Positions 871-17,546 of a stretch of 21,806 nucleotides of DNA are shown piece after piece. The DNA comes from an uncultured bacterium. Lineage in GTDB: Bacteria; Abyssobacteria; SURF-5. The position numbers and the translations under genes were made by a program. The DNA lies in contig CAZSKP010000020.1 of assembly GCA_964607485.1 (NCBI GenBank), positions 49,134 through 70,939 of the forward strand. Reading direction: 5' to 3'. A model generated the notes under the pieces. The model was not told the origin of the DNA and did not search any database. It saw only the letters and a program-made list of their open reading frames with translations. The first letter of the stretch is position 1, and every line of letters starts with the position of its first letter.

Positions 871-910
871 AGAGTAAGTGGAGAGAGGAGCCGGAAAGGA
901 GAGACTAACA

Positions 911-3900
911 ATGAGCACTGCAGGCAAATGTTCAGAATGCGGCGCCGAACTACCTGCAGATCATGGACTTAGAGGTCTGTGCCCGCGCTGCTTGCTCGTG
1001 CTGGGCTTGGGGGTTGACGACACGGCCGACCCGAAAACCATTGGCGCCTACGAGATTGAGCGTCTGCTCGGTCGCGGCGGCATGGGCGTCGTCTACAAGG
1101 CGCGCCAGGTGTCCCTCAACCGCATCGTCGCCCTCAAAATCCTCAACCCAACACTGAGCAGCGATCCCGCTTTTGTCAAGCGATTCCATCGCGAAGCACA
1201 GGCGGTGGCCCGTCTGAACCATCAGAACATCGTCCACATTTACGATATCGGCGAAGAGAACGGGATGCACTTCTTCAGCATGGAATATGTGAAGGGCCGG
1301 CTGCTTAGTGAGATCCTGGACAAGGAGGGATTCCTGAGAGTGGGCCAGGCGGTGGACATCATCTTTCAGGTAGCGAGAGCGCTGAGATACGCCCACTCGA
1401 AGAACATCATACATCGCGATGTCAAGCCGTCCAACATCATCGTCGACCGGCTGAGCAGGGTGAAGGTCATGGACTTCGGGCTGGCGAAGCTCGGCGGCAA
1501 CACGCGGCTCACCAGGACCGACACTGTGCTGGGAACGGTGAAATACATGTCACCCGAGCAGGCGCGCGGAGAGACGGTCGACCATCGGACGGACATCTGG
1601 TCGATGGGGATCGTGCTCTATGAGATGCTCGCGGGCATGACTCCGTTCAAGGCGACGAACGAGGCGGCGCTGATACACAAAATTATCTACGAACCTGTCC
1701 CGGACCTGAATGACCTCAGTCCGGAGACGCCACCGCAACTGCGGGCGATTGTGGCCAAGACGATGGCAAAAGATAAGAATGAACGCTACCAGAGCGTTTC
1801 CGACTTCCTGAAGGACCTGCAGACTCTCAAGGCTCCTCGACCAACAAAAGGCGACACGCTTTTTGAAAAAGCCGGGGGGTATCTCGAGAAACTCATCGCC
1901 TTTTCGCGCAAGAAGGATGTTCGCCGCAAAGTGCTGGTGCCGCTAGCGCTCGCAGCAGTCATTTTTGTGGGATATCTTGCATATTCCAAGTGGTCGGAGC
2001 AAAGAGGCCCAGCCCCCGAGGATATGGTCCTGATTCCCGCCGGCGAATTCATGATGGGAGCTTCTCCGGGCATGGTCCATCAGCATGAGACCCCACAACA
2101 CCGCGTGTTTCTCGATGCTTTCTATATCGACAAATTTCCCGTCACCAATATGCAGTTTCAGAAGTTCGTGGATTCAACGGGCTATGTAACGGATGCAGAG
2201 AAACGGGGATGGTCAAATGCTCCAGAGGAAAAGCGGGCCGACCAGATTAAAGCGAATGGCGCAAACTGGCGCCATCCGCGAGGGCCCGAAAGTGACATAA
2301 AGGACATAATGAACCACCCGGTTGTTCATGTTAGCTGGAATGATGCTCATGCGTACGCCAAGTGGGCCAATAAACGCTTGCCAACTGAGGCGGAATGGGA
2401 GAAGGCGGCAAGGGGCACCGATGGGAGGAAGTACCCCTGGGGCGACGGTGAGCCTGATGGAACCCGGTGCAACTATGCAGACAGGAACACAGCTTTCGGT
2501 TGGAGAGACAGTAGCGTAGATGATGGATATGAATACACCTCTCCAGTCGGACGATACGAGAATGGCAAAAGTCCATATGGTATATACGATATGGCGGGCA
2601 ACGTGTGGGAATGGTGCTCTGACTGGTACGATAAGGATTACTTCAGCAAAAGCCCTAAAGATAACCCGAAGGGTCCTGCGAACGGCCAGCATCGCGTGAT
2701 CCGGGGAGGCGGGTCGTGGCACGACGGCGCCGATTATATGCGATCAACAAACCGTGGTCCACGCCAACCAGCATTCGTGAGTTCCGACCAAGGCTTTCGG
2801 TGCGCCAAGGGTGTGCCGGGAGCGAAAGTGACCGAGGTTGCGGCTAACTTTGACGACGGATTGCCCGCCGGATGGGCTCTCTATGGGACAGCCGCCGTCG
2901 AAAACGGACAGATAGTCTTGACTCCCAATCTACACAACCAGGCTGGAAGTATATTCTATAATACTCCCGTTCCTCATTGTTCACATTTCGAGGTTTCATT
3001 CGATTTCGAGATTGTAGGATTTGCCGATGGATTTGCGTTCGCATGGGTCCCAGGACCTGAGTTCATCGGCGGGGACGGAGCAGATCTTGGCTATGAAACA
3101 TTGCAGGGGTATGCCGTGGAGTTTGATGTGTATTGTGACCGAAACTACGACCCACCCCGTTCTCATATTGCGTTGATCAAGGATGATGTTCGCCGGCATC
3201 TGGCGTCTTCAATGGACTTCCCCACTCTGAACAATTCAGGCAAGTTCTCCTGTAATATCGTTTTTCTGAATTCAACAATACGCGTATACTTGTCAAATCC
3301 GCAGGCAGGACTGGCGGAAAAGAAATTGGTGCTCGAACACACGATTTCCGACTACGAACCATTTACGGCATATCTTGGTCTCACGGGGGCGACGGGCGGA
3401 GTATCCGCGAGGCACGTAATAGACAACGTGAGAATGTCTGCCCCATTCCAAGCGACTCGAAAGCGGCTGAAAGGGGAAAAGAAAAGTGGCGAACGAAAGA
3501 TGACTTCCCAAAAAACCGAAACCATGGACACGCATGCACACCCCCAGTTAGCCCGGGCCAAGAGATTGGCAGAGGAGGAAAAGTGGGATGAAGCCTTGAC
3601 CGCCTATACCCAGTTGGCCGACCAGCATCCGGAAAACATTGAGCTGCAAAAAGCAGTGGTATTATTTCTGCATAACGAATATCGAATCGGCAAGAAACTT
3701 GAATGGGCGTCAGCTCCGTTTCGCTCATTTTCCAAAACAATGAGGCGATATGCTGAGAGAGTCATTAAGCTGGATCCCTCCCAGCGCGATATGTATTATT
3801 TTGGCCTTCGCGGATATGAATATGCTGGCCTGCCCATTTCCGAAACAGTCAAAAGGCAATTGGAAAACAACTATGCACGGACTCGTCAAAGATTCCCCGA

Positions 3901-5125: not shown

Positions 5126-5563
5126 GGTAGACTGAGACTGACCACCCAAAACGAGTTCGCATGGACAAATAATCTCAGGTTAAACGGCCGCGGATAGTTG
5201 TCAATGGTTTCACTTTTCCACTCCCTCTGAAAGTGTAATTATCACCCATCCTATCGTTCAAATATCGCCCTTGGCGAGTGCATAATACGTTTTCAAATCT
5301 GCATTCTTAAATCGCTTGCTTTTATGCTGTTCCAAGTCCTCAGCCGCCGAGGACTATCTTTTGACCGGAGCGAACACACGAGACACAGAAAAGGACTTCA
5401 CGCACAAGGAAGATTGTGCTGGTTTTTTGTGCCGGTTTGCAGTCAGCTCTGTGCTTTTCATGTCATCCAGTGGCAAAACCAAGCCCTTTTTGGAGCATCA
5501 CATCTTCATGTCCAGTCTACTGTTGGCAGGGATTGTCTTTCAATGGCCGTATCTTTAGGATAG

Positions 5564-5607
5564 CACTCGTAATGAGGGGGTCAGGGGTTCGAGTCCCCTC
5601 TCCAGCT
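5564..5607 (+). pseudogene. 3' half of tRNA-Thr(CGT); probable attachment (att) site scar of an integrative element
   Basis: Anticodon loop CTCGTAA 5566-5572, 3' anticodon strand TGAGG, variable GGGTC, perfect T-arm AGGGG-TTCGAGT-CCCCT 5583-5599, acceptor 3' strand CTCCAGC 5600-5606 plus discriminator T. No GCTGGAG 5' acceptor strand or D-arm upstream. The anticodon stem pairs for only 2 bp. Confidence 0.85.
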
Positions 5608-5614
5608 CTTTGCT

Positions 5615-5648
5615 ATCGGGGCACTCTTATGAGTGCCCTGATCTTTTT
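5615..5648 (+). terminator. Intrinsic (rho-independent) terminator downstream of the tRNA fragment
   Basis: 12-bp stem ATCGGGGCACTC / GAGTGCCCTGAT (one G-U), TTAT loop, followed by CTTTTT. Confidence 0.85.
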
Positions 5649-5667
5649 GTGGGGCAAATGGTGGCAA
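5649..5667 (+). repeat. Tandem G(G/T)GGCAA direct repeat, possible integrase arm-type sites
   Basis: GTGGGGCAAA TGGTGGCAA directly after the terminator. Related motifs are GTGGCAAA at 5470-5477 and TGGTGGCAAA at 17632-17641. Confidence 0.35.
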
Positions 5668-5984
5668 GTTGTGCTGGTTCTCAATGGCTGATACGACCAT
5701 ACTACCCCACCCAGTTCTCTCTGTAAACTTGGTGCTGAAGGACTGCCAAACTTGTCCAGATATTCGATGTCACAGAAGAGAACGACTTCCATTTTTTCGG
5801 CATGAAGGTAGCAGGACTCCCGACGGAACCCATAGAGAGACGTCTGACCATTGTGGAAGCAGTGAGAATTACCGCTCCAACCGGGGTGGGGAATAGAGCG
5901 ACAGAGTATCTTTCTTCGTCGAATGTGGCCGGTTCATTCTGCGTTCCAAATCTCCTGGTAAAGCGCGAGTTTCTAGAAAAATCC

Positions 5985-6013
5985 TTGTATTTAAAGCAAT
6001 TGCATGATATAAT
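5985..6013 (+). promoter_or_regulatory. Sigma70 promoter with extended -10 for the five-gene signalling cluster
   Basis: TTGTAT (5985-5990), 17-nt spacer, TG at 6005-6006, TATAAT (6008-6013), in an AT-rich context. Confidence 0.8.
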
Positions 6014-6119
6014 TTTTTCCTCATTGATACGACCCGGCCCATTGTCGATAGGCCTTAGCGTGCCAGATTGATGATATCCTCCCTTCAGAAAGAGGAGGTC
6101 GGGAGAGGCTTTGGGGATT

Positions 6120-8762
6120 ATGGGAATGCAACGCTCGCACCGGCGGATTTTTCGGGTTCCCCACCTGCTGAGAGTCCTGGTCGTTCACCTCATGTTTCAA
6201 ATCCTTGTTACATCCATCCCTTTCCAGACAACTGCAGAGGAACTTGCCTCCGATAGAAAGCCGGGCCCGCCCACGCAAAGCTCTGCTTTCGTGTACGTAA
6301 TCGACAAATCCTCGAGCATGCTCAGGACTTTTGACGCGCTGAAGGAAACCCTGAGAAAGGCAATCGGGAAATGCGGTTCCGACGACAGCGTCTCCATATT
6401 GGTTTTCGGCGACAACGTGACGTTATTAGCCAGTTACAAATCCATGAATGAATTCAAGAAAGACGCCGTGCTGAAGCTTCTGGATTCCGTCTCTGCCGAT
6501 GCACTCTACACAAATTTGGGACTGGCAATCGATCAGGGGACCCAATGTCTGTATGATCGCTTCTGTGAGGAACAGGCGGAAGACTATACCTTGATACTCG
6601 TAACCGATGGCAAGGATCATCCCTCGCCCAATTACGTTCGGAAGAGAACCATTGAAGATTCCATCACTCAGTTTCCCGATTTTCTTCCGGGGCAGCAGTG
6701 GTCGCTCCGTTACATTGCTTTGGAGGGCCAAATAGACCCGCAACTGTTCGAGCTCGTGAGAAAATATGACGGGAGCTTCTTTGATGTGGAAAAGATCGCT
6801 CATCTGGCGAGCATGGACGACGGCGAAGTGATCGAGAGCATAATCGGTGATCCCGAACAATGGGAGAGTCTCCACGCCTTCATAATCGACCATTTGGGTG
6901 AAGTGCAGATAAAGCGGGAGGGTGAGGAACTGTGGTTCTCAATTTCGAAGGACGGCCCGCAAAGAATTTTCCCTCACGATGAAGTAAGGATATCCTCTGG
7001 ATCGAAAGCCGTCATTAGTTTTGGACCAATTGGGAAAGTTGGCATGGAGGAGAATAGCCAGGCGAGTCTCGAGACCCTGCAGGCCCTGCCTGTGAGAAGG
7101 TCCAGCGCGGTTGAGATTACATTGGACAGGGGAACGCTCTGGAACGCTGTAACCGCGTCGCCGGGTTCATCACTCACTTACGAAGTACTGACTCCCATCG
7201 CTCTCACGGGTCTGAGAGGAACTGTTGTCAGGGTGGCTTTCGACGACGCAACGCTTAACCAAAACATTGCAGTGTTGGAAGGAATAGCAGAGATCAGTTC
7301 GCTGGAGGAAGAGCCTGTATTCGAAGAGTTTGACCTTGAGTTGGGATACTATTCGGCAATATCTCCGGGGGAAAAGCCTTCCCCGCCCAAACCAATTCCT
7401 GAAGAAATTCTTCGTGAATGGGAATTATGGAAGGAGATCCTGCGGGGAGAAGCTTCCCTTTCGCAACTGGCACTCGGAGCGAGACAATTTCTCACGGCCC
7501 GTCTGGATAAGACGAAGATGATCCTGGGTTCGTTGGAATCGGGCAAGGTCTGCACTGATAAGCTGACGCTGAAGCTCGAAGGCCATCTGCCGGTCGAGGG
7601 AATGGAAATTCGAGCAGTCCCAGACATTTCGTTGCCACACGGCGTTTCGTGCAGCGCAAGTGTGAATCTGAACCACATGATGAAAGAAGCAGAAATCGTG
7701 GTCACCGCCGAAGTGAACGAAGGCGTTCACCTTCCGGATGGTAAGACATGGGATGGCGTGTTGGCTCTTGGAAGTTCGGTCAAGAACGTCTCCTTTTCGA
7801 ATAATCCCATCCCGTTGAGGCTGTTTCGTGAAAAGGAGAAGAAGATTGGGAGCGGAGCGGGTCGCCATTCCTTTTTGGGAGAGGTTTCGGTTTGGGAGTG
7901 GTTGATGGCGAATTGGAAATGGATGGGTTTTCTCGTTGCGATCCCGGTGTATTTTTTCTTTTTGGTACTCGCCGAGCGGCAAAGGCGGTATGGAGCCCAT
8001 GCCAGGAGGTTCATACCCCTGGAGGGGTGGCTCCTCGTGCTGAGCTCACCCAGGGACTCCGACATCGAGAATATCGACCTCAAGGCTCTCAGCCTGAAAT
8101 CAAAGAAGTCTGTCTTGATTGTCGGCAGACATCCGGCTTGCGATATCCGCATCTCCCACTCCACTGTCGATAAGAGCCACGCCCGGCTGCGTCCCAGCCG
8201 AGAGGGCGTTCCTGCTTCGGTGTATATAGACGGTTTGGAGCTTAACGATGTTAAGGTCAACGACTTCATTACCAACAAAGAGGTTGTGCTTAAGGATAGA
8301 GATATTGTTGACATCGGAGCCTTTAAATTTATGTACACAACCTCTTACCTCAAACAGGTCGTAGTCCATTACAATGACGGAGATACCAGATATGGGACCC
8401 TCCTGACGTGGAACATGGAAGACGAAGGCTTCGTGCTTCGTCCTATGAGCGAACCTCCTGACGACAACCCTTGTTATATCCCATTCGCCGACCTAAAAGG
8501 AGTCTTCTTCGTCAAGGATTTTGACAAGGAAATCGCACGAAAGATCAAATCCTCAGATATCTACACGAAGAAACATCATATCGTCGTGGAATTCCCGGAC
8601 GGCGAGACAATCGAGGGGTATACCGTGCATGACTATGATCCAAAGGCTCCCCGGTTCTTCCTGGTTCCAGAGCTGAAGAAGGATGAAGAAGGGAACAACG
8701 TGTACATCCTTGTGGAGAGAAGCTCTGCGAAAAAAATCAACATTGTGGCCGAGCCGGCCTGA
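6120..8762 (+). CDS. Single-pass membrane protein, paralog A: signal, vWA, FecR domain, beta-rich domain, TM, FHA, tandem Sm-like (DUF6982-like) domains
   Basis: Start is uncertain (TTG 6111, ATG 6120 or ATG 6126). Basic then hydrophobic N-terminus. vWA MIDAS DKSSS 6303-6317, YTNLGLAI, LILVTDG. FecR motifs GEVQIKR, SGSKAVISFG, LDRGTLW, YEVLTPIALTGLRGTV, AVLEG. TM ~7914-7973. FHA IVGRHPACDIRI..VDKSHARL. C-terminal VVVHYNDG..YGTL, LKGVFFVKDF, VEFPDGETIEG, FFLVP..GNN. Confidence 0.85.
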   Translation: MGMQRSHRRIFRVPHLLRVLVVHLMFQILVTSIPFQTTAEELASDRKPGPPTQSSAFVYVIDKSSSMLRTFDALKETLRKAIGKCGSDDSVSILVFGDNVTLLASYKSMNEFKKDAVLKLLDSVSADALYTNLGLAIDQGTQCLYDRFCEEQAEDYTLILVTDGKDHPSPNYVRKRTIEDSITQFPDFLPGQQWSLRYIALEGQIDPQLFELVRKYDGSFFDVEKIAHLASMDDGEVIESIIGDPEQWESLHAFIIDHLGEVQIKREGEELWFSISKDGPQRIFPHDEVRISSGSKAVISFGPIGKVGMEENSQASLETLQALPVRRSSAVEITLDRGTLWNAVTASPGSSLTYEVLTPIALTGLRGTVVRVAFDDATLNQNIAVLEGIAEISSLEEEPVFEEFDLELGYYSAISPGEKPSPPKPIPEEILREWELWKEILRGEASLSQLALGARQFLTARLDKTKMILGSLESGKVCTDKLTLKLEGHLPVEGMEIRAVPDISLPHGVSCSASVNLNHMMKEAEIVVTAEVNEGVHLPDGKTWDGVLALGSSVKNVSFSNNPIPLRLFREKEKKIGSGAGRHSFLGEVSVWEWLMANWKWMGFLVAIPVYFFFLVLAERQRRYGAHARRFIPLEGWLLVLSSPRDSDIENIDLKALSLKSKKSVLIVGRHPACDIRISHSTVDKSHARLRPSREGVPASVYIDGLELNDVKVNDFITNKEVVLKDRDIVDIGAFKFMYTTSYLKQVVVHYNDGDTRYGTLLTWNMEDEGFVLRPMSEPPDDNPCYIPFADLKGVFFVKDFDKEIARKIKSSDIYTKKHHIVVEFPDGETIEGYTVHDYDPKAPRFFLVPELKKDEEGNNVYILVERSSAKKINIVAEPA

Positions 8763-8968: not shown

Positions 8969-11632
8969 ATGTATTCTGGGCGGCCATACAGCTTTATGAC
9001 TGTCGTTGTGAGTGTTTTCACAGCGTGCCTGATTTTTCTCGCTGCTTTCCCCTTGATTCCGTCTGCAACATTCGGGGAAGAACTTGACCCTCCAACGGAA
9101 TTTGGACAAGCACGAGGCGGTTCAGCCATCGTGTATCTAATCGATAAGTCATCGAGCATGCTTTGGGTATTTGATGAGTTAAAGGGGATCGTAAAGAAAG
9201 CCATAGACCAACGCGGACCCGAGGACAGCATTTGCATCATCGTCTTTGGCGATTCCGTAACTACGTTGGCCTCGTACAAACACTTGGACGACTCAAACAA
9301 GGCAGCTCTGTCGGGGCTTCTTGATTCCGTCTATGCGGATGCCCTGTACACAAATTTGGAGCTTGCGATCGATCGAGGGATCCAACATCTGCACACTTAT
9401 TTCTGTGATCATATGGCGGAAAATTATACACTGGTTCTCATAACCGACGGCAAGAACCATCCGCCGCCCGGACATATTCGCGAGCGATCCCTGGAAGAGG
9501 CAGTGACTCAGTTCTCGGATTTTCTTCCCGGAAAGCAGTGGTCGCTGGGTTACGTTGTTCTAGAGGGTCGGCTCGATCCGGAATTGCTGACCCTTCTGGG
9601 GAAATACGAGGGCAGAATCCTCGATGTCGATGAAATCGCTCAAACATCCGAGGCAACCGGCGACGAAGTCCTAGCGAGCATCATTGAGCATCCGGAAGAC
9701 TGGATATCATTTGAGGCCGTACTCGTGGACCATACTGGCGAGGTGAACGTGAGGGGGCCGGAAGGGGACCGGTGGGTTGCAATTCCGAAAGGGGCCACTC
9801 CGGAATTGCTCGCTGGAGATAGCGTGGCCGTATCTGCTGGCTCAAAGGCGGTCATCAGCTTCGGGTCGCTTGGGAGAGTGGGACTTGAGGGAACCACTGA
9901 GATTAATCTGAACAGGCTGAAGAAGATGCCTCTGGAACAATCGAGCGTCATCCAACTCAGGTTGGAGAACGGCACTCTCTGGAATACCGTAAAGGGTCCC
10001 ATGGCTGGCGAGGTCACTTACGAAGTGCTAACTCCTATCGCCTTGACAGGTGTAAGAGGCACGGTTTTCAGGATATCTCTCGACAGCCAAACATTGGAAC
10101 AGACCATCGCGGTCCTTGAAGGAACGGTCGAGACAAGCTCCTCCGAAGAGCGCCCCAGTTTCGAGAGCTTCACTCTGACCGATGGAAACTTTTCAATATT
10201 CTCTTCAGGTGCAAAACCCTCCTCGCCCCTGCCCATACCGAAGGATATGATCCTTCAATGGGAAAGATGGAGGAAAGCCTTACAAAAGAAAGAGCCCCTT
10301 TCGCACATCAATTTTCAAACAGTGCTGATCACACCAGCCGAGGGAAAGCTTGTAATGGGACCGATAAAACCCGGTATGAAGTTCAGCAAAATGGTCCCGC
10401 TCACATTGAGCGAAGAGTACCGTGGGAAAGCGCCTATCTCGGCGAAAGTGGTGATCGACTTGCCCCCGGGAGCCAACATAAAGGTTGACGTCATCGATAA
10501 AGATGATAGCAAACTGGAGAAAAATCTGTCAGTCAATCTCCAGTGCCAACCTTTTCTCAGGTATGCCGGGGCAAAGGAATACAACGGCAAGATCAGGCTC
10601 ATGTGCTCCAGTGACGATGTCAGATTCACCGAGCCGGAAGTGGAACTTCAAATACTTCATTCCCCTCCCAGATTTGGCCTCTGGGGAGGCGACTATTCGA
10701 CTCTCACAAAGAATCTTATCCTGGCAGCCGCTGTGTTGTCAACGCTGTTCATCATCTTCGTGATATGGAAGAAGAGGGATGCGTTTCTTAAACTCAAAAA
10801 GTGGGAGAGGAGAGTTATCGACTATATCCGACAGAAGGTCATCAAGACGAAGTTCATTCACTTATTCCGAGCCAGACCCACAGGACAACTCGTGTTGCGA
10901 GGTTCGTCACCGGACGGGCATCGAAAACTGTTCAACTTGGCTGAAATATCTCTTCACAGCAACGAAGTCGTCCTCGGCATCGGCTCGGACCCGTCGAATG
11001 CAATTTCCCTTTCTCACTCTTCGGTCCGTCCGTTCCACTGCACCATCTGGGCTGGTCGAAGAAGAAATCCGACAAGAGTTTACATCAACGCTCTTGCAGG
11101 GGGACATTTGGCCGTAAATGGCGACCAGATTGCGCACACTCAGGAGGTCAAAGACAAAGATGTGATCGCAATCGGAGACTATGAATTCGAATTCGTTGAC
11201 ACTCAGCTCTATCGCCAGGTCGAGGTCCATATGAACAATGGGACAGTCTATGAAAGCACGCTGGAATACTGGGATCTTAACCATAGCGTCTTCTATATCA
11301 GACAGACCCTGCAAGATCACGATTGCACACTTGCTGTTCCGTTTATGGATGTCTCTCACATACATTTTTATCAGGATGAGAGCGCGCGCGATATAGGCGT
11401 CCTGCCACACCCGTTACGTGCTTACCGAGCAAAGCGCAAGAGTCTCGCTAAAGTCACCCTCAGAAGCGGACAGAAGCTGAAGGGATTCAAATATGGGAAA
11501 TATCGCCATGAGGACTCGCCCGGAATCTTTCTTCTGCCGCCTTCTTCTGAAGAATCAAGGATTCAATACACGTATATACCGAAAACCAGCATCGAAACTT
11601 TCGTGATTGTGGACAGTTATCGAGCCCATTGA
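8969..11632 (+). CDS. Single-pass membrane protein, paralog B: signal, vWA, FecR domain, beta-rich domain, TM, degenerate FHA, tandem Sm-like domains
   Basis: Same architecture as paralog A. DKSSS 9143-9157, YTNLELAI, LVLITDG. YEVLTPIALTGVRGTV. TM LILAAAVLSTLFIIFVIW 10715-10768. FHA-like LGIGSDPSNAISL..VRPFHCTI..VNG..KDKDVIAIG. Sm-like VEVHMNNGTVYESTLEYWD and AKVTLRSGQKLKG. Purine-rich SD GGAAGGGGA upstream. Confidence 0.85.
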   Translation: MYSGRPYSFMTVVVSVFTACLIFLAAFPLIPSATFGEELDPPTEFGQARGGSAIVYLIDKSSSMLWVFDELKGIVKKAIDQRGPEDSICIIVFGDSVTTLASYKHLDDSNKAALSGLLDSVYADALYTNLELAIDRGIQHLHTYFCDHMAENYTLVLITDGKNHPPPGHIRERSLEEAVTQFSDFLPGKQWSLGYVVLEGRLDPELLTLLGKYEGRILDVDEIAQTSEATGDEVLASIIEHPEDWISFEAVLVDHTGEVNVRGPEGDRWVAIPKGATPELLAGDSVAVSAGSKAVISFGSLGRVGLEGTTEINLNRLKKMPLEQSSVIQLRLENGTLWNTVKGPMAGEVTYEVLTPIALTGVRGTVFRISLDSQTLEQTIAVLEGTVETSSSEERPSFESFTLTDGNFSIFSSGAKPSSPLPIPKDMILQWERWRKALQKKEPLSHINFQTVLITPAEGKLVMGPIKPGMKFSKMVPLTLSEEYRGKAPISAKVVIDLPPGANIKVDVIDKDDSKLEKNLSVNLQCQPFLRYAGAKEYNGKIRLMCSSDDVRFTEPEVELQILHSPPRFGLWGGDYSTLTKNLILAAAVLSTLFIIFVIWKKRDAFLKLKKWERRVIDYIRQKVIKTKFIHLFRARPTGQLVLRGSSPDGHRKLFNLAEISLHSNEVVLGIGSDPSNAISLSHSSVRPFHCTIWAGRRRNPTRVYINALAGGHLAVNGDQIAHTQEVKDKDVIAIGDYEFEFVDTQLYRQVEVHMNNGTVYESTLEYWDLNHSVFYIRQTLQDHDCTLAVPFMDVSHIHFYQDESARDIGVLPHPLRAYRAKRKSLAKVTLRSGQKLKGFKYGKYRHEDSPGIFLLPPSSEESRIQYTYIPKTSIETFVIVDSYRAH

Positions 11633-14523
11633 TGTTCATGCGACCAAATCCAACAAAAGTTGCACGAAGCACGGAACACGGGATGACCGAAAACACTCAA
11701 GAGTCGAAAGTCGGCCGATTTTCCGCCGTGCGAAAGCATTACGGGGTCGTGATTGCCGTTTCCTCCTGGCTACTGATCGTCGTGCTCGGGCTTTTTTTTC
11801 ACGGGCCCTTCATGGAAATGGAAAACAAGCTCCTTGATATCCGGATGCGTCTTCCCCATAAGGCGAAAGCCTGCGATCAAATTGTCTATGTTGATATCGA
11901 CGATAAAAGCATAGCTCTTTTTGGAAGGTGGCCCTGGAACCGCTCGCTGATGGCCGAAATTCTTCAAGCGCTCCGACGTGCGAATATTGTGGGAATGTTT
12001 CCCGATTTTCTCATCGCCGAAGAGACAACGGTCAGGGATGACCTCGCCCTTGTTCATGCGGTAGAGGACAGCGGAAACATATTCTTGGGCGCGGCGTTCC
12101 AGCTCCAACAAGCCGATGAACATCCAACACAATCAGAGCCCGTCGACGGGATTCTGAAAGGATTCCGTTATGACCTTAGAGTCAACACCGATAGCAAAGC
12201 AATGAGAGCCACAAGGGCGCTCGCTTCCCTTCCTTCGCTTATGGCGGTGGTTGCTGGAACTGGACACATCAGTTTCGTGCCTGATGAAGACGGAGTAGCC
12301 AGAAATCTGCCCCTCTTCGTTGACCTGGAAGGTCGGTATTTCCCTTCGATCGACATCGAAGTGGCCCGTTGGCTCCTTCAAGTCGAGCGAGAAAAAATCG
12401 AGATCGTTCCGGGAAGATATGTGGTTCTGAGGGAAGCGCTGACGCCCGGCCTTACTGAAAGGAAGGATGTCTTCATCCCGGTGGACGCACAAATGCGGAT
12501 TCTTATCAACTACGCAGGCCGGTGGGGCGAAGCCTTCAAACACTATCCGATCCACGCGATACTCAGAGATCTGCTTTCTGACGATCCACTTGCGAGAGAA
12601 AAGGCGAAGAGCTTGCTTGACGGCAAGTTTATTGTTCTATCCGCCGCTTTCACGGGCGGCGCGGATATGGGGCCAACTCCGCTCCAGCCTCTTGTGCCCC
12701 TGTCGGAAATCCATGGGCATGTCATAAGCTCAATCGTGAACCAACAATTTCTGAGACACGTTCCGTCTTCGGCGACCATGCTCATCGCTCTCCCACTCTG
12801 CCTGGTGTTGGGTCTGTTATCGCCAAGGTTGAAGACCTTGCGCCTTTCAGGTCTCAGCGCCTTGATGCTCGCTCTATGGGTAGTAACGGCATTTGTTCTG
12901 TTCGCAGCCGCTGGATACGTTGTTGATATCGTTTGGCCGGGCGCGGCCATAGTGCTCTCGTACGCGGGCTGCGCCGGACGCATGCACTGGAAGACGGAAC
13001 GTGAGCGAGCATCACTCCGGAGGGCCTTCTCCCAATATGTTTCGCCCGACGTGCTTTCTCAAATACTCGTTGAGCCGCGCAGGCTCGTCCTCGGGGGCGA
13101 ACGAGTCAACTTGTCGATTCTGGTGCTGGTCTTCGAAAAATTCGAACGATTCTCTGAAAATGCAGAACCGGAGGAGATCATCGAACTGCTCACGGCTTTC
13201 TACGATAAGACGTGCGAATGGATCTTGAAACACGGGGGTACCATCGATAAGTTCACGAAAGACGGGCTGATTGCATTCTTCGGCGCTCCGTTGAAGCAGG
13301 ACAAACATTTGGAATCGGCGGTGAGGGCCGCCCTGTCGATCAGGCGGGAAGTGGCCGAGCTGATTACGTCAAGGAGCCGGCGAGGAGAAAAAACGGTCGG
13401 CGTGAAAATGGCGATACACTCGGGCTTCGCCACCGTGGGAAACATCGGGTCTCCGAAGAGGATGGACTATACGGTAATCGGAAGGAACGTGAACCTGTGC
13501 ATTGCAATGGCCGAGTCCGCTACAGACGGCCAAATACTCGTGACACGCAAGACTCACCAAAGCGTGGAAAGCCTCGTTGACGCGAAAGAATGCGGAGAAG
13601 TCAGACTTTCCGCATATCCGAAACCCTTTTTCATTTTTGACATCATCGGTCTGAAGGATGCATTGCAACATGTCCCCGTGCCGACGATCATCCCAACCGT
13701 CGAAATGCGCGAAAAGAAATTCCTGGGTCCCTACACGTTGACCGAGAAACTTGGAGTGGGCAATACGGGAACGGTCTACAAGGGATACGATGAACAATTG
13801 GACCGCCAAGTCGCTATCAAGGTGCTTTCCCCAGGTTTGCAGAAAGACAGGCTGCAACTAATCGCAGAAGAGGCAAAGACGCTCGCGAAGTTGAGTCATC
13901 CCAATGTTGTACAGGTTTACTATGCGGGAGAAGAGGATGGGATCGGATTTCTGGTGATGGAATTGGTGGATGGAGGCAACCTGAGAGAGTTGATAAACAC
14001 CGAGGGGGCTCTCTCGGTGAGCCATGCGCTCGACATTATCACCCAGACCTCCCGCGGACTGAACGCTGCACACAAGCGGGGAATAACTCACCGCGATATC
14101 AAGCCCGCCAATCTCCTGCTGAACAATTACGACATTGTCAAGGTCACAGACTTCGGACTTGCCGGCGAAAAGATTTTCAGACAAAGAGCAGAACGACGCA
14201 TAGCCGGAACATTCCAGTACATGTCGCCCGAACAGGCCCAAGGACTCAAGACAGACTGCAGAAGCGACATATACGCCCTGGGGATTACGTTCTTTCACTT
14301 ACTCGCTGGAGAGGTTCCCTTCAAATCGGACAGCATCGCCGGTCTGATATGGCATCATGCCGAGTCCCAGCTCCCCATTGAACCCCTCAAGAAACAGGGG
14401 GTTCCAGACTCAGTAATCAGGCTGGTTCAAAAGATGACGGCAAAGCTTCCCGGCGAGAGATTCGCCAACTACTTGGAATTACTCGAGGAGCTGGATAAAC
14501 TAGAGCTTCAAATTGACGGATAG
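11632..14523 (+). CDS. CHASE2 sensor, 3 TM, degenerate class III nucleotide cyclase, Ser/Thr kinase fusion
   Basis: ATG 11632 overlaps the upstream stop (TGATG); ATG 11683 is an alternative start. N-terminal TM. CHASE2 motifs IVYVDIDDKSI..GRWPWNRS, PDEDGVARNLPL, GKFIVL, EIHGHVISSI. Three hydrophobic helices. AFSQYVSPDV linker. Cyclase fold GGTIDKF..DGLIAFFGAP, VGNIGS..RMDYTVIG. Intact kinase motifs LGVGNTGTVY, VAIK, HRDIKPAN, DFG, GTFQYMSPE. Confidence 0.92.
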   Translation: MFMRPNPTKVARSTEHGMTENTQESKVGRFSAVRKHYGVVIAVSSWLLIVVLGLFFHGPFMEMENKLLDIRMRLPHKAKACDQIVYVDIDDKSIALFGRWPWNRSLMAEILQALRRANIVGMFPDFLIAEETTVRDDLALVHAVEDSGNIFLGAAFQLQQADEHPTQSEPVDGILKGFRYDLRVNTDSKAMRATRALASLPSLMAVVAGTGHISFVPDEDGVARNLPLFVDLEGRYFPSIDIEVARWLLQVEREKIEIVPGRYVVLREALTPGLTERKDVFIPVDAQMRILINYAGRWGEAFKHYPIHAILRDLLSDDPLAREKAKSLLDGKFIVLSAAFTGGADMGPTPLQPLVPLSEIHGHVISSIVNQQFLRHVPSSATMLIALPLCLVLGLLSPRLKTLRLSGLSALMLALWVVTAFVLFAAAGYVVDIVWPGAAIVLSYAGCAGRMHWKTERERASLRRAFSQYVSPDVLSQILVEPRRLVLGGERVNLSILVLVFEKFERFSENAEPEEIIELLTAFYDKTCEWILKHGGTIDKFTKDGLIAFFGAPLKQDKHLESAVRAALSIRREVAELITSRSRRGEKTVGVKMAIHSGFATVGNIGSPKRMDYTVIGRNVNLCIAMAESATDGQILVTRKTHQSVESLVDAKECGEVRLSAYPKPFFIFDIIGLKDALQHVPVPTIIPTVEMREKKFLGPYTLTEKLGVGNTGTVYKGYDEQLDRQVAIKVLSPGLQKDRLQLIAEEAKTLAKLSHPNVVQVYYAGEEDGIGFLVMELVDGGNLRELINTEGALSVSHALDIITQTSRGLNAAHKRGITHRDIKPANLLLNNYDIVKVTDFGLAGEKIFRQRAERRIAGTFQYMSPEQAQGLKTDCRSDIYALGITFFHLLAGEVPFKSDSIAGLIWHHAESQLPIEPLKKQGVPDSVIRLVQKMTAKLPGERFANYLELLEELDKLELQIDG

Positions 14524-14568: not shown

Positions 14569-15909
14569 ATGATTTACGGTATAGGACACATACTCGACCA
14601 AGAATTTCGCGTTGTCAACGTCCACGAGGGCGGCATGGCACTCGTGTATATTCTTGAGGATACAAGAACCGGAGACAAGATAGCGGCGAAGACGATACGC
14701 GAAGAACTCCTGAGCGATGCTTCGATGGTTGCTCGGTTCAGGCGCGAAATGAAGATCTGGGTGGGTATAGGCAGTCACCCCAATGTTGTTCGGGCTTTCT
14801 TCGTGAAAAACATTGAGTCCTGTCCTTTCCTCTTTATGGAATACATGGATAAGGGATCGCTTCTTGAGCTTACCAAGTCGAGTGACCCTTTCCCTATCAG
14901 TCAGATTTTGACTATCGCCCGGGCGATAGCAGAAGGAATGAGCCATGTGCACAACCGGCTTACCCCCGATGGACTGCGTGGAATAGTTCACCGCGATCTC
15001 AAACCGTCTAACATACTGATGAACAAAGAGGGGGAGATCAAAGTGGCGGACTTCGGAGTGGCGCGAGCGCTCGACACGACCCTCCTCACGCGAACACTTG
15101 ATGTGGTAGGGACCATTCATTACAGCTCGCCGGAACAGATTCTCGACTCGCGAAACGCAGACAAGCGAGCCGACGTTTACTCCTTTGGGGCCATTCTGTA
15201 CCATGTTGCGTGCGGCACGCCTCCGTTTGAGGGGACAACGTGGATGCATCTGGTGAACAAGATAAGAACGTTTACGCCTCCTTCGCCCACAGAAGTGCGA
15301 AGCGATATCCCCGAACCGTTTTCTCGGATTACGATGAAATGCCTGGCGAAACAGAAGGAGGACCGGTTTGAGAATTTTGAGGAAATCATTTTGGCCTTGT
15401 CAGAACTGATTTCGGAAAAGGAAGAGGGCGGAAAGAAAGCGGATCGCGCCACAGCAAGGGAGTTGAGCAGAATACTGGACCTGGCGGAAAAAGAGGCTGT
15501 GAAAAACGGGTGTGCTTTCGTGGAGCCGGTCCATCTCTTGTTGGCGGTCGTATCGGCGAATACGGAATCTCTTTCGGCATGGCTGAAAGATGTGCGGATA
15601 GACTCGGACAAGCTAGCAAGCCGTATTCGCGAACTCATCGGACGGACGGAACAAGCCCCTCCCCCGAGTGATGTGACGCTCAAGCGTTCATCCCGAAGGG
15701 TCATCGGGCTGGCTCAGAGTTTGGCTGAACAGGAGAAGCTCCGGAATCCGTGTGGTAGGCATATATTGAGAGCGTTGATTCAGGAAACCTCGGTCCGCGA
15801 GATACTGGCGAATGGCCTGAGCCTGGATGGCAGCGAAGGCGTCGAAACGGAAACGCTTTTCGATGAAATAGAGGAGGGGTTCGAGCCTCCTCACATAGAT
15901 GACTTGTGA
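14569..15909 (+). CDS. Cytoplasmic Ser/Thr kinase with C-terminal Clp N-terminal (Clp repeat) domain
   Basis: Kinase motifs EGGMALVY, IAAKT, HPNVV, HRDLKPSN, DFG, GTIHYSSPE, DVYSFG; no TM. C-terminal two-repeat pattern RILDLAEKEA..FVEPVHLLLAVV and RRVIGLAQSLA..CGRHILRALI resembles Clp_N. Confidence 0.88.
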   Translation: MIYGIGHILDQEFRVVNVHEGGMALVYILEDTRTGDKIAAKTIREELLSDASMVARFRREMKIWVGIGSHPNVVRAFFVKNIESCPFLFMEYMDKGSLLELTKSSDPFPISQILTIARAIAEGMSHVHNRLTPDGLRGIVHRDLKPSNILMNKEGEIKVADFGVARALDTTLLTRTLDVVGTIHYSSPEQILDSRNADKRADVYSFGAILYHVACGTPPFEGTTWMHLVNKIRTFTPPSPTEVRSDIPEPFSRITMKCLAKQKEDRFENFEEIILALSELISEKEEGGKKADRATARELSRILDLAEKEAVKNGCAFVEPVHLLLAVVSANTESLSAWLKDVRIDSDKLASRIRELIGRTEQAPPPSDVTLKRSSRRVIGLAQSLAEQEKLRNPCGRHILRALIQETSVREILANGLSLDGSEGVETETLFDEIEEGFEPPHIDDL

Positions 15910-15941: not shown

Positions 15942-17546
15942 ATGGCTGTGCTTAGAATTCTAGCTCCCGCTGAACTTCAGGACGATTTTCAGATTGGCCA
16001 GAGGATATTCACGCTGGGCCGTTCCCCCGACAACACTCTTCAGATAGACCGACCCACCATAGCTCGCGTGCATGCGTCGATCATATGTGAGGGAAAAAGA
16101 TACCTTCTGATCGATCACTCCAGCAGACACGGAACATTTGTGGACGGCGATAGAATTGACAGGAGAGTGCTATCCTCCGGCAACCGAATCGCACTGGGCA
16201 AGCACGCCGAATTGCTATTTTCAATCCCAAGTCCCGAAGCCGACACCCGGGTCGGCCAGCGGGTCGTCGTGACGAAGGACCAGGCGAAGGACCCCATTTC
16301 AGACATTCAGAAGAGAATGACGCTGGAAGAGGCCGGATTTGACTACAAACAGGGCATTCCTGCCAAGACATTTGAGGCTGAATCAAGGGGAAGATATCTC
16401 TCGACAATCTATCAGGTCAATCAGACCATAACCGAAATCTTTGACCTCAGTGAACTGGCCAACAGGGTTCTCGATCTGATACTCCAGATCTTTGCGGTTG
16501 ATAGAACCGCCATCATCCTGTATGACCAGGAGGCACAACATCCATATCCCATCGCGTTCAAAGCCAGAAAGGAGATCCACGGCTCCAGCCCAATCAACAT
16601 CAGCCAGACAATTATCAGAAAAGCGATCTTCGAGGGAAGTGGGATCTTGGCGAGCGATACATATATTGACGACCGCTTCAAAGACGTCTCCAGCATCATG
16701 CGTAAGCAGATTCGGTCAGTAATGTGTGTGCCGCTCCACACAAAGGGGAAGATTCTGGGGGCGATATACGCCGACGCTCTCGAAGTCCCAGGGGGATTCT
16801 CTGAGGAAGACCTTCGTCTGTTGTTTGCCGTTGGAGGAGCGCTTGCAAACTCGATTGAGAACGCGTGGCTGGTTGACATAATAAAGAAGGAGGAGCGGAA
16901 ACTGAGCACCCTCGAGCGATATCTTCCCTCAGTTGTCCTCGAGCACTTGCTCCAGCAGCAGGATCCAACAAAGCTGGGGGGAAAAACCGTTTCCATCTCC
17001 ATTTTGTTCGCGGACATTCGGGGTTTTACCCTCCTGACGGAACGAACCAGTTCAGCGGACGTTGTCTTTCTTCTGAACGACTATTTCACGTCGATGTCGG
17101 AGATTGTTTTCGAATATGGTGGCACGCTGGGCGAATACATTGGTGACGAAATCATGGCCTACTTCGGAGCGCCAATTGAATGTGAGGATCATGCCTCGCG
17201 AACGATTTCTGTGGCCACGAAAATGATGGAGAGGATGAGATTGCTCAAGAATCACAGAAGGGAGGCTGGATTGCCTGTCTTCGACATCGGAATCGGAATC
17301 GCCACGGGAGCCGTCATAGCGGGCAACATTGGCTCGGCCAAGCAAATGAAGTACACGGTCATCGGGAATACGGTCAATCTGGCCAAGAGATTGTGCGATT
17401 ACGCGCAACCAGGGCAAATACTGATCGACGCGGATGCGTATCACGTCGCCGAAAAACCGTCGAACGTTCGTTTTCTCGAGAGAGTAAATCTCAAGGGAAT
17501 CTCAAGGCCGGTGGCAGTTTACGTGGTTGAGCAGAACATCGACTAA
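15942..17546 (+). CDS. FHA-GAF-class III nucleotide cyclase (predicted guanylate-cyclase-like specificity)
   Basis: FHA FTLGRSPDN..IARVHASI..DHSSRHGTFVDG. GAF IRSVMCVPL..GKILGAIYAD..FSEEDLRLL. Cyclase SILFADIRGFT, GEYIGDEIMAYFGAP, GNIGS..KYTVIGNTVNLAKRL with both metal Asp residues and the Asn/Arg pair intact. Confidence 0.92.
   Translation: MAVLRILAPAELQDDFQIGQRIFTLGRSPDNTLQIDRPTIARVHASIICEGKRYLLIDHSSRHGTFVDGDRIDRRVLSSGNRIALGKHAELLFSIPSPEADTRVGQRVVVTKDQAKDPISDIQKRMTLEEAGFDYKQGIPAKTFEAESRGRYLSTIYQVNQTITEIFDLSELANRVLDLILQIFAVDRTAIILYDQEAQHPYPIAFKARKEIHGSSPINISQTIIRKAIFEGSGILASDTYIDDRFKDVSSIMRKQIRSVMCVPLHTKGKILGAIYADALEVPGGFSEEDLRLLFAVGGALANSIENAWLVDIIKKEERKLSTLERYLPSVVLEHLLQQQDPTKLGGKTVSISILFADIRGFTLLTERTSSADVVFLLNDYFTSMSEIVFEYGGTLGEYIGDEIMAYFGAPIECEDHASRTISVATKMMERMRLLKNHRREAGLPVFDIGIGIATGAVIAGNIGSAKQMKYTVIGNTVNLAKRLCDYAQPGQILIDADAYHVAEKPSNVRFLERVNLKGISRPVAVYVVEQNID

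What the first reader, a model, noticed from the sequence alone, without database searches (positions are those of the whole stretch)
17004..17395. Soluble cyclase has a Glu/Lys charge swap typical of bacterial guanylate cyclases
Seen: GTLGEYIGD has Glu (17133-17135) where adenylate cyclases have Lys (the neighbour reads GTIDKF), and MKYT has Lys (17349-17351) where the neighbour has Asp (MDYT). Both metal Asp residues (17013, 17145), Asn (17376) and Arg (17388) are intact. Known: a Glu in this position, oriented by Lys/Arg, specifies GTP in Synechocystis Cya2 and eukaryotic guanylate cyclases. Inference: an FHA/GAF-regulated guanylate cyclase; cGMP signalling is documented in relatively few bacteria. 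The retained Thr makes mixed specificity possible.
Basis: partly seen in the sequence, partly recalled or inferred. Interest (0 to 1): 0.75.

Follow-up and report, generated by a model that had tools for sequence, protein, structure and literature searches.

The report
Probable bacterial guanylate cyclase, Cya2-like signature
A soluble signalling enzyme in this window has swapped two charged residues in its active site in the way known to turn a cyclic-AMP maker into a cyclic-GMP maker, so it is probably one of the uncommon bacterial cyclic-GMP synthases, although only an enzyme assay can prove it.

Summary
The gene at 15942-17546 (+) encodes a 534-aa FHA-GAF-class III cyclase. It has Glu398 where adenylate cyclases have Lys, and Lys470 where relatives have Asp/Glu/Gln. 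All the catalytic residues I checked are intact: D358, R360, D402, N479, R483, K518.

Its best solved relative is the Synechocystis guanylate cyclase Cya2 (E=2.7e-36). Cya2's Glu488 and a Lys two residues before Gly562 align with E398 and K470.

The swap is conserved and coupled:
- All 19 cyclase-bearing members of the gene's own clade (18 relatives of 55-68% identity plus the query) read E/K/T.
- All 101 more distant FHA-GAF cyclases read K + D/E/Q + T.
- Among 169 cyclase domains of the nearest representatives, Glu always pairs with Lys/Arg (15/15) and Lys never does (0/146).

The clade sits among Lys-type FHA-GAF cyclases, not with Cya2-like E/K/G enzymes. The swap therefore looks independent.

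Caveats:
- Thr472 replaces Cya2's Gly, and Cya2's specificity Tyr is absent.
- An engineered E/T cyclase stayed ATP-preferring.
- The FHA domain has lost canonical phosphothreonine-binding residues.
- No cGMP receptor is visible nearby.

Verdict: a probable, unproven guanylate cyclase and a new variant of a known kind, of moderate interest.

The parts
15942..17546 (+). Gene for the 534-aa FHA-GAF-class III cyclase (the finding)
   Evidence: ORF list; Pfam FHA 24-86, GAF 168-305, Guanylate_cyc 351-530 at 1.4e-28
16011..16199 (+). FHA domain with decayed phosphothreonine-binding residues (R27 kept; A41 for Ser; H63 for Asn)
   Evidence: Pfam 1.7e-16; alignment to GarA FHA, where vSRrHa and sLNGT align to iARvHa and sRHGT; clade statistics
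16443..16856 (+). GAF domain, ligand unknown
   Evidence: Pfam 2.6e-14; best PDB match is the GAF of an HD-GYP protein, 4MCW, at 5.5e-8, and PDE10A GAF reaches only 0.0018
16911..16928 (+). LERYLP motif between GAF and cyclase, at the place of the cyclase transducer element; R326, Y327 and L328 are invariant in the clade
   Evidence: Coordinates; invariant columns in A3; a conserved CTE motif FGRY is described in PMC5995499 (passages). Calling it a CTE is my inference from position and similarity.
16992..17531 (+). Class III cyclase catalytic domain
   Evidence: Pfam; Cya2 2W01 at 2.7e-36 and CyaB 3R5G at 2.2e-33
17013..17021 (+). D358 (metal) and R360 (phosphate; equivalent to Cya2 Asp448/Arg450)
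   Evidence: Table 1 of PMC6005667; gap-free alignment to 2W01
17133..17147 (+). E398 (base-specifying; equivalent to Cya2 Glu488) and D402 (second metal Asp)
17349..17357 (+). K470 (aligns with the Cya2 Lys two residues before Gly562) and T472 (aligns with Cya2 Gly562 and with the Asp/Thr of adenylate cyclases)
17376..17390 (+). N479 (ribose), K482 (at the place of Cya2 Tyr572; variable in the clade) and R483 (transition state)
17493..17495 (+). K518 (equivalent to the gamma-phosphate Lys608 of Cya2)
   Evidence: Table 1 of PMC6005667
14569..15909 (+). Ser/Thr kinase with a C-terminal Clp_N domain, directly upstream (33-base gap)
   Evidence: Pfam Pkinase 1.1e-45, Clp_N 5.3e-10; the same gene order is seen in L001
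11629..14523 (+). CHASE2 - degenerate cyclase-homology domain - Ser/Thr kinase. V501 replaces the first metal Asp, E503 replaces the phosphate Arg, and A626 replaces the transition-state Arg.
   Evidence: Pfam; alignment A1; 13 orthologs; motif coordinates
6111..8762 (+). VWA-FecR-TM-FHA-DUF6982 protein, first of two paralogs in the conserved cluster
   Evidence: Pfam; one homolog lies in the same position in L001
8969..11632 (+). VWA-FecR-TM-FHA-DUF6982 protein, second paralog; its end overlaps the next gene by 4 bases
   Evidence: Pfam; ORF coordinates

Best explanation
The gene encodes a soluble, catalytically competent class III nucleotidyl cyclase that most likely prefers GTP and makes cGMP.

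Inferred mechanism, by homology with Cya2 and other class III enzymes: two cyclase domains form a head-to-tail homodimer with two symmetric sites. One protomer supplies D358 and D402 (two divalent metals) and R360 (phosphates). The other supplies E398, held in place by K470, which hydrogen-bonds N1-H and the 2-amino group of guanine. That protomer also supplies T472 (lining the O6 side of the pocket), N479 (ribose), R483 (transition state) and K518 (gamma-phosphate).

Activity is probably set by the GAF domain (ligand unknown) through the LERYLP linker. The FHA domain looks vestigial or repurposed.

The E/K pair arose by a reciprocal charge swap (Lys to Glu; Asp/Glu to Lys) inside a family of Lys-type FHA-GAF adenylate cyclases, independently of the Cya2-like E/K/G enzymes.

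Shown here: the sequence features, their conservation and covariation, and the relationships. Inferred: dimer geometry, residue roles, product and regulation.
For: Architecture and catalytic residues.

Best solved relative is the guanylate cyclase Cya2 (2W01, 2.7e-36, 128 bits), in a gap-free alignment that puts E398 on Glu488, K470 on the Lys of TKYG, and T472 on Gly562.

Literature, passages only:
- The Cya2 Glu dominates base selection 'assisted by a supporting Lys' (PMC6005667).
- Cya2 E488K alone yields an ATP-specific enzyme (PMC5995499).
- Glu at this site with C/S/T/H/A/G at the second site is the pattern of guanylate cyclases (PMC4215837).

Conservation: E/K/T in 19 of 19 cyclase-bearing clade members at 55-68% identity, and E398, K470 and T472 are invariant columns of A3.

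Covariation: E with K/R in 15/15 and K with K/R in 0/146 representative domains.

Independent origin:
- Outside the clade, the nearest cyclase domains are Lys-type (up to 51% identity), against at most 44% for other Glu-type domains, with the signature columns removed.
- Neighbour-joining bootstraps: clade monophyletic in 297/300, all Glu-types together in 0/300, and the nearest enclosing clade purely Lys-type in 257 of 297.
- Size-matched HMMs: 20 of 20 clade domains score higher with FHA-GAF Lys-type profiles than with the other-Glu profile, in 10 of 10 draws.
- The whole FHA-GAF-cyclase architecture is shared with the Lys-type proteins at 32-37% identity over 90-100% of the length.
Against: - No enzyme assay exists for any E/K/T enzyme.
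- Thr472 replaces the Gly562 that the review credits with a steric role in Cya2. Tyr572, said to enhance GC activity strongly, is Lys482 here and variable in the clade (S10, C3, R2, H2, N2, K1).
- In Ma1120 the engineered K101E/D157T enzyme gained GC activity but stayed ATP-preferring: kcat/Km 3.16 for ATP against 0.227 for GTP (x10^6 s-1 M-1) (PMC4215837, Table 3). Ma1120 was not given the Lys.
- That K470 is the 'supporting Lys' rests on alignment and covariation. The Rauch 2008 paper was not available, and I could not inspect coordinates.
- No cNMP-binding receptor domain was found in the window or in L001.
- The phylogeny is neighbour-joining on simple distances because the ML programs were unavailable. 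In 40 of 297 bootstraps the nearest clade did contain a Glu-type domain.
- The covariation p-value ignores shared ancestry.
Confidence: 0.6

Rival explanations
1. A promiscuous purine nucleotide cyclase. The Glu/Lys pair raises GTP use, but with Thr in place of Gly and without the Cya2 Tyr the enzyme makes both cAMP and cGMP in comparable amounts.
For: The Ma1120 K101E/D157T mutant used both substrates and still favoured ATP (PMC4215837). Thr at this site is the class IIIb adenylate-cyclase residue and is retained from the Lys-type ancestors (101/101). Soluble GC itself is described as promiscuous (PMC6005667). An E/T pair in the M. xanthus PKN2 GC-like domain was judged of 'unclear' specificity (PMC1262709).
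Against: In Cya2 the Glu/Lys element dominates selection, and a single E-to-K change flips specificity. Strict conservation of E and K in 19/19 argues for a defined specificity. Ma1120 lacked the supporting Lys.
Confidence: 0.2
2. Still an adenylate cyclase. The swap merely reverses a structural salt bridge without changing the substrate.
For: The two positions covary as a charge pair, which a purely structural salt bridge would also produce. Engineered E-containing Ma1120 variants stayed ATP-preferring.
Against: Lys at the first position contacts adenine N1 directly in adenylate cyclases (PMC7384201, passages). Losing it cut Ma1120 AC activity by 92% at pH 7.5. In the literature I read, enzymes with Glu at this position are described as guanylate cyclases, or as indicative of them.
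Confidence: 0.07
3. In vivo it works mainly as the metal-binding (C1-like) half of an asymmetric heterodimer with the degenerate cyclase-homology domain of the CHASE2-kinase encoded two genes upstream. That would give one hybrid site whose base-specifying residues (Lys, Asp, Thr) come from the partner.
For: In 13 of 13 orthologs the partner domain has lost the first metal Asp (V/I) and the phosphate Arg (E/D). It keeps the other half fairly well: Lys 10/13, Thr 12/13, Asn 10/13, Arg 9/13. The two genes are linked in the window and in L001.
Against: The GC has a complete residue set and needs no partner. The partner's gamma-phosphate Lys is absent in 13/13, and the window's own copy also lacks the transition-state Arg (A626). 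One chain is membrane-bound and the other soluble. No binding evidence exists.
Confidence: 0.1
4. A pyrimidine (cCMP/cUMP) cyclase of a Pycsar-type anti-phage system.
For: PADLOC PycC profiles match residues 351-487 at 6.3e-17.
Against: That score (59.7 bits) is lower than for the general Pfam cyclase model (100.2 bits) or Cya2 (128 bits), so it reflects shared class III homology. No effector gene of the Pycsar kind is adjacent. The gene sits in a conserved kinase/VWA signalling cluster.
Confidence: 0.02

Closest known systems
Cya2 of Synechocystis PCC 6803 (PDB 2W01), the CHASE2-linked class III guanylate cyclase
   Same: Best solved-structure match (2.7e-36). It shares the Glu at the first base position, a Lys two residues before the second base position, both metal Asp, the Cya2-type phosphate Arg (R450 = R360), and the Asn, Arg and gamma-phosphate Lys.
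   Different: Thr472 instead of Gly562, and Lys482 (variable) instead of Tyr572. The N-terminus is FHA-GAF and soluble rather than CHASE2 and membrane-bound. The cyclase domain does not group with Cya2-like E/K/G domains.
Lys-type FHA-GAF-cyclases (annotated 'adenylate cyclase'; Acidobacteria, Hydrogenedentes, Myxococcales, Aminicenantes and other MAG names)
   Same: The same three-domain architecture over 90-100% of the length at 32-37% identity. Their cyclase domains are the closest outside the clade (up to 51%). The Thr at the second base position is shared.
   Different: They read Lys + Asp/Glu/Gln where this clade reads Glu + Lys (101 of 101 against 19 of 19). Their FHA domains keep the canonical Arg/Ser/Asn almost without exception, and this clade's do not.
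Class IIIb adenylate cyclases CyaB (P. aeruginosa, 3R5G) and CyaC (Arthrospira, 1WC0)
   Same: Strong sequence matches (2.2e-33 and 8.1e-25), with Thr at the second base position.
   Different: They have Lys and an acidic residue (GTIDKF...MDYT; GTVDKF...SDFT) where this protein has Glu and Lys.
Xanthomonas XC_0250 (GuaX) and the R. centenum cyclase, the other assayed bacterial guanylate cyclases
   Same: Bacterial class III enzymes reported to make cGMP (PMC3770947).
   Different: They do not use the Glu/Lys signature and lack the Asn/Arg pair (L157/A161). XC_0250 has a linked cGMP receptor, XC_0249. No receptor is seen next to this gene.
Eukaryotic guanylate cyclases (sGC beta1 Glu473/Cys541; RhGC Glu497/Cys566)
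   Same: Glu at the first base position, and weaker sequence matches (1e-11 to 1e-18). I recall, but did not check here, that an Arg sits two residues before the Cys (the E-R-C triad of Tucker/Sunahara 1998). That would be the same position as K470.
   Different: Cys/Ser rather than Thr, different regulatory domains, and much lower similarity.

Membership tests
Class III nucleotidyl cyclase (PF00211) | Significant match to the catalytic-domain profile | tested here: met
   100.2 bits against a cut-off of 21.9, residues 351-530
Class III nucleotidyl cyclase (PF00211) | Two metal-binding Asp, the transition-state Asn/Arg, and the phosphate-binding Arg and Lys | tested here: met
   D358, D402, N479, R483, R360 and K518, mapped on Table 1 of PMC6005667 through the gap-free Cya2 alignment
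Class III nucleotidyl cyclase (PF00211) | Catalytic dimer | not testable with these tools
Cya2-type bacterial guanylate cyclase | Glu at the first base-specifying position | tested here: met
   E398 aligns with Glu488; invariant in the clade
Cya2-type bacterial guanylate cyclase | Lys that supports the Glu | tested here: met
   K470 aligns with the Lys of Cya2 TKYG. E pairs with K/R in 15/15. That this Lys is the 'supporting Lys' of the literature is inferred, because the primary paper was not held.
Cya2-type bacterial guanylate cyclase | Gly at the second base position (steric role) | tested here: not met
   T472. Among the other Glu-type representative domains the residue is G9, A2, C1.
Cya2-type bacterial guanylate cyclase | Tyr lining the guanine pocket (Tyr572) | tested here: not met
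   K482, variable in the clade. It is also not Tyr in the 12 other Glu-type representative domains, so this may be a Cya2 peculiarity.
Cya2-type bacterial guanylate cyclase | Common descent with the E/K/G cyclase domains | tested here: not met
   0/300 NJ bootstraps unite the Glu-types; identity and HMM scores favour Lys-type relatives.
Cya2-type bacterial guanylate cyclase | GTP turned over faster than ATP | not testable with these tools
   Needs an enzyme assay
Class IIIb adenylate cyclase (Lys/Thr pair) | Lys at the first base position | tested here: not met
   E398
Class IIIb adenylate cyclase (Lys/Thr pair) | Thr at the second base position | tested here: met
   T472
Phosphothreonine-binding FHA domain | Profile match | tested here: met
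   PF00498 at 1.7e-16; GarA FHA at 1.1e-10
Phosphothreonine-binding FHA domain | Conserved Arg (GR), Ser (SRxH) and Asn (NGT). Their roles as phosphate and peptide contacts are recalled, not checked here. | tested here: not met
   R27 is present, but A41 replaces Ser and H63 replaces Asn. Clade: 10/19, 5/19 and 1/19, against 100/101, 101/101 and 99/101 in Lys-type relatives.
Cyclic-nucleotide-binding GAF domain (PDE/CyaB type) | Close similarity to cNMP-binding GAFs, or the NKFDE motif (motif recalled) | tested here: inconclusive
   The best PDB match is a GAF of an HD-GYP protein (5.5e-8), and PDE10A GAF reaches only 0.0018. I saw no obvious NKFDE pattern by eye in the sequence.
Pycsar pyrimidine cyclase (PycC) | Specific PycC match plus an adjacent effector gene | tested here: not met
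   Only a generic 59.7-bit match; the neighbours are kinases and VWA/FHA proteins

The most novel reading that the evidence does not exclude
The cluster encodes a partner-dependent product switch. As a homodimer, the soluble E/K/T cyclase makes cGMP. When paired with the conserved 'C2-like' pseudo-cyclase domain of the CHASE2-kinase, which has lost its own metal and phosphate residues in 13 of 13 orthologs but mostly keeps Lys/Asp/Thr/Asn/Arg, it would contribute the metal site to a single hybrid, adenine-specifying active site. One signalling module would then emit cGMP or cAMP according to receptor state. Alongside this, the clade would be an independent, convergent re-invention of the Glu/Lys solution for GTP selection.
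Probability: 0.08. Interest if true: 0.8.

Novelty: new variant of a known kind. Interest (0 to 1): 0.45.

Why it matters
In the papers I read, few bacterial cGMP synthases have been assayed: Cya2, the Rhodospirillum enzymes and Xanthomonas XC_0250. Even for Cya2 the receptor is still unknown (PMC10187061).

This clade offers a natural experiment. An adenylate-cyclase family appears to have switched its base-selecting residues by a two-residue reciprocal charge swap while keeping everything else. Comparing E/K/T enzymes with their K/(D,E)/T sisters would directly test which residues suffice for GTP selection in a natural scaffold, where engineered swaps have given ambiguous results.

It would also extend cGMP signalling to uncultivated lineages (hits are named Hydrogenedentota and Lindowbacteria) and link it to a Ser/Thr-kinase/VWA/FHA cluster.

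The signature itself is known, Glu/Lys-type cyclases are not rare in metagenomes (15 of 173 of the nearest domains), and nothing here is proven biochemically. Hence moderate interest.

Tried and rejected
1. ML phylogeny: treekit, FastTree and iqtree2 could not be loaded. I used my own neighbour-joining with bootstraps, identities and size-matched HMM scores instead.

2. Dimer prediction: complex prediction for the GC domain with the neighbour's degenerate cyclase domain was unavailable. Nothing was folded, and homo- and heterodimerisation stay unchecked.

3. DUF6982 as a possible cNMP receiver:
- The PDB sequence search gave nothing (best E=0.87).
- The Atlas gave only DUF6982 clusters.
- The AF2 model from a 14-sequence alignment (mean pLDDT 79.4) shows two small beta-barrels.
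- Foldseek against PDB gave no match at E<=0.001; the best, at 0.02, were Tudor/Sm-like folds.
So there is no evidence that it binds cyclic nucleotides.

4. Pycsar reading: rejected (see the rival explanations).

5. Search for a cNMP-binding domain: no such Pfam hit among the ORFs I scanned in the window and in L001. The rest of the genome could not be examined.

6. Rfam and tRNA scans of the window found nothing.

7. Genome scan: the search for related loci gave only two loci, one of them a 2.3-kb fragment, so synteny rests on few loci.

8. Papers not held: Rauch et al. 2008 (PMC2572937) and Ochoa de Alda 2000 (PMC94558). What I say about the 'interacting lysine' comes from a review and from recalling the abstract. 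PMC2576301 gave nothing useful.

9. Prior description: full-text searches found no paper describing an FHA-GAF guanylate cyclase (0 papers; 4 papers, none on this family). No supplementary files were consulted.
Full report
**What is there.** The window carries a run of same-strand genes:
- an ECF-type sigma factor (78-827);
- a 1415-aa Ser/Thr kinase fused to FGE-sulfatase, lectin and TPR domains (878-5125);
- two paralogous VWA-FecR-FHA-DUF6982 proteins (6111-8762 and 8969-11632);
- a CHASE2-cyclase-Ser/Thr kinase (11629-14523);
- a Ser/Thr kinase with a Clp_N domain (14569-15909);
- the gene of the finding (15942-17546).

The finding's gene encodes 534 aa: FHA (24-86), GAF (168-305) and a class III cyclase domain (351-530, 100 bits). 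Gaps between the last genes are small: a 4-base overlap, then 45 and 32 bases. This fits one operon, which is my inference. After 17546 come unrelated genes: GH4 glycosidase, TetR, a SnoaL-like protein and a POR-like oxidoreductase.

**Checking the observation.** HMMER alignments to solved structures confirm the equivalences.
- The adenylate cyclases CyaB (3R5G) and CyaC (1WC0) read ...D-K-F-V-G-D... and ...M/S-D-Y/F-T...
- The guanylate cyclase Cya2 (2W01) reads ...D-E-F-M-G-D... and ...T-K-Y-G...
- This protein reads ...G-E-Y-I-G-D... and ...M-K-Y-T...

The Cya2 alignment has no gaps. With Table 1 of PMC6005667 the mapping is: D448=D358, R450=R360, E488=E398, D492=D402, G562=T472, N569=N479, R573=R483, K608=K518.

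One correction of detail is needed. The classical 'second base-specifying' position (Asp in class IIIa, Thr in IIIb, Cys in animal GCs, Gly in Cya2) is T472. K470 lies two residues upstream, where Cya2 also has Lys.

**Is it more than chance?** Yes.
- Of the 120 best full-length relatives, 19 form a close group at 54-68% identity, with names such as Candidatus Hydrogenedentota and Lindowbacteria. Eighteen of them carry a cyclase domain, and P0019 is truncated.
- All 18, and the query, read D-E-D-K-T-N-R at the seven key positions.
- The other 101, which are FHA-GAF-cyclases at 32-37% identity, read D-K-D-(D/E/Q)-T-N-(R; H in one). There are no intermediates.
- In the exhaustive search of 1.84 billion representatives, the 150 best proteins gave 173 cyclase domains. 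Glu at the first position occurs in 15, always with Lys (14) or Arg (1) at the second. The third residue is G (9), T (3, all from this clade), A (2) or C (1).
- On the 169 domains covering at least 150 query positions, E pairs with K/R in 15/15 and K pairs with K/R in 0/146. Lys-type domains have D60, E49, S16, N14, Q4, T2, G1 there. Fisher p = 2e-21, not corrected for phylogeny.

**What is known about the signature.** All of this comes from passages only. [quoted passage not shown] E488K alone gives an ATP-specific enzyme (PMC5995499). The Tyr is said to hydrogen-bond the guanine 2-amino group (PMC4886424) and to enhance GC but not AC activity (PMC4215837). Guanylate cyclases have Glu at the first site and C, S, T, H, A or G at the second (PMC4215837).

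I recall that the abstract of Rauch et al. 2008 speaks of 'a conserved glutamate, assisted by an interacting lysine', but that paper was not available. No text I read gives the Lys a residue number. Its identity with the Lys aligned to K470 is therefore my inference from alignment and covariation.

**Points against a simple 'it is a Cya2'.**
- T472 replaces Gly. K482 replaces the Tyr and varies within the clade. The Tyr is also absent from the 12 other Glu-type representative domains, so it may be peculiar to Cya2.
- In the Ma1120 adenylate cyclase, K101E/D157T raised GC activity about 2- to 4-fold, yet kcat/Km stayed 3.16 for ATP against 0.227 for GTP. That scaffold had no supporting Lys.
- The other assayed bacterial guanylate cyclases do not use this signature at all. 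XC_0250 has L73, A150, L157 and A161 (PMC3770947). 'Typical of bacterial guanylate cyclases' should therefore read 'typical of the Cya2 type'.

**Where the clade comes from.**
- With the three signature columns removed, the closest cyclase domains outside the clade are Lys-type (47-51% identity; P0092 at 51%). The best other Glu-type reaches 44%.
- In a neighbour-joining analysis of 127 domains (all 20 E/K/T, all 12 other Glu-type, 45 of 101 FHA-GAF Lys-type and 50 of 146 other Lys-type, chosen at random), the clade was monophyletic in 297/300 bootstraps. All Glu-types were together in 0/300. The smallest enclosing clade held only Lys-type sequences in 257 of 297 and some Glu-type in 40.
- Profiles built from 11 randomly drawn FHA-GAF Lys-type domains scored all 20 clade domains higher than the profile of the 11 other E/K(R)/(G,A) domains, in 10 of 10 draws.
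- The other Glu-type cyclases carry different sensors: PAS, REC, HAMP, REC-GAF and PilZ.

Together with the shared three-domain architecture, this indicates that the Glu/Lys pair arose inside the FHA-GAF adenylate-cyclase family, independently of Cya2-like enzymes. From a K/E/T ancestor each change could be one transition (AAR to GAR and GAR to AAR), which I read from the codons GAA and AAG. The ML tree programs were unavailable, so this conclusion is provisional.

**Regulation.** The FHA domain matches the profile and GarA (1.1e-10). Against GarA's GR, SRRH and LNGT it reads GR, ARVH and RHGT.

| FHA residue | This clade (19 with an FHA region) | Lys-type relatives |
|---|---|---|
| Arg | 10/19 | 100/101 |
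| Ser | 5/19 | 101/101 |
| Asn | 1/19 | 99/101 |

In locus L001 the ortholog begins after the FHA region (426 aa, GAF-cyclase only). The substrate swap is thus accompanied by relaxation or loss of canonical phosphothreonine recognition, and direct FHA-mediated control by the adjacent kinases is doubtful.

The GAF domain resembles GAFs of unknown ligand (4MCW, 5.5e-8) more than cNMP-binding ones (PDE10A, 0.0018). Between GAF and cyclase lies LERYLP (16911-16928), with R326, Y327 and L328 invariant. It sits where other cyclases carry the transducer element (FGRY motif, PMC5995499), which suggests GAF-to-cyclase signalling through that linker. This is my inference.

**Surroundings.** L001 keeps the order VWA-FecR-FHA-DUF6982, CHASE2-cyclase-kinase, kinase, GAF-cyclase, with different flanks. 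Linkage elsewhere could not be assessed, because most contigs are short and the lists are incomplete. The window's own cyclase, for example, is not in the list.

The CHASE2-linked cyclase domain is not a normal adenylate cyclase. In 13 of 13 orthologs the first metal Asp is Val/Ile, the phosphate Arg is Glu/Asp, and the gamma-phosphate Lys is absent. Lys (10/13), Thr (12/13), Asn (10/13) and Arg (9/13; Ala in the window) are largely retained. This is the pattern of a 'C2-like' half-site and prompts the heterodimer idea, which could not be tested.

No cNMP-binding domain was found in the window or in L001. DUF6982 models as two small beta-barrels without significant structural relatives. PADLOC's PycC matches are generic.

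**Verdict.** This is most likely a GTP-preferring class III cyclase (confidence about 0.6), with mixed purine specificity as the main alternative. It is a new variant of a known kind: the Cya2-type Glu/Lys signature on a Thr-bearing class IIIb scaffold of FHA-GAF architecture, probably of independent origin. Only an enzyme assay can settle the product.

Noticed in passing
window 11629-14523 (cyclase-homology part about 13040-13690; V501 at 13129-13131): The CHASE2-cyclase-kinase has a half-degenerate cyclase domain. The first metal Asp is replaced by Val/Ile and the phosphate Arg by Glu/Asp in 13 of 13 orthologs, and the gamma-phosphate Lys is lost. The Lys/Thr/Asn/Arg half is mostly kept (the window copy has Ala for the Arg). 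It looks like a C2-like pseudo-subunit or a pure dimerisation module.
   Followed up: partly
window 16011-16199; L001 10016-11296: The FHA domain of the E/K/T clade has lost the canonical Arg/Ser/Asn set that is almost invariant in the Lys-type sister family. The L001 ortholog lacks the FHA domain altogether.
   Followed up: yes
window 6111-8762 and 8969-11632 (DUF6982 at 8340-8759 and 11207-11629): These are two tandem paralogs of a VWA-FecR-TM-FHA-DUF6982 protein. DUF6982 also occurs as stand-alone proteins of about 130 aa. It models as two small beta-barrels (pLDDT 79) with only weak Tudor/Sm-like structural matches (E >= 0.02). Function unknown.
   Followed up: partly
window 878-5125: A 1415-aa protein fuses a Ser/Thr kinase to an FGE-sulfatase (SUMF1-like) domain, a legume-lectin-like domain and TPR repeats. 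It lies directly after an ECF-type sigma factor gene (78-827).
   Followed up: no
window 5126-6110: This is a nearly 1-kb stretch without a convincing ORF between the big kinase gene and the VWA genes. It holds a strong terminator-like hairpin at 5615-5642 (12 pairs, 7 GC, T-run). There is no tRNA and no Rfam match.
   Followed up: partly
window 14569-15909; L001 8657-9985: A Ser/Thr kinase carries a C-terminal Clp_N domain. In L001 the kinase ORF ends at 9655, and the region up to about 9985 appears to continue the protein in another frame. This could be a frameshift or an assembly error in that MAG.
   Followed up: no
proteins P0185, P0205, P0251, P0200, P0249 (representative search): Glu/Lys-type (predicted GTP-type) cyclase domains occur with many sensor or output domains, including PilZ, REC, REC-GAF, PAS and HAMP. 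Sequence-predicted Cya2-like enzymes are therefore fairly widespread in metagenomes (15 of 173 of the nearest domains).
   Followed up: partly
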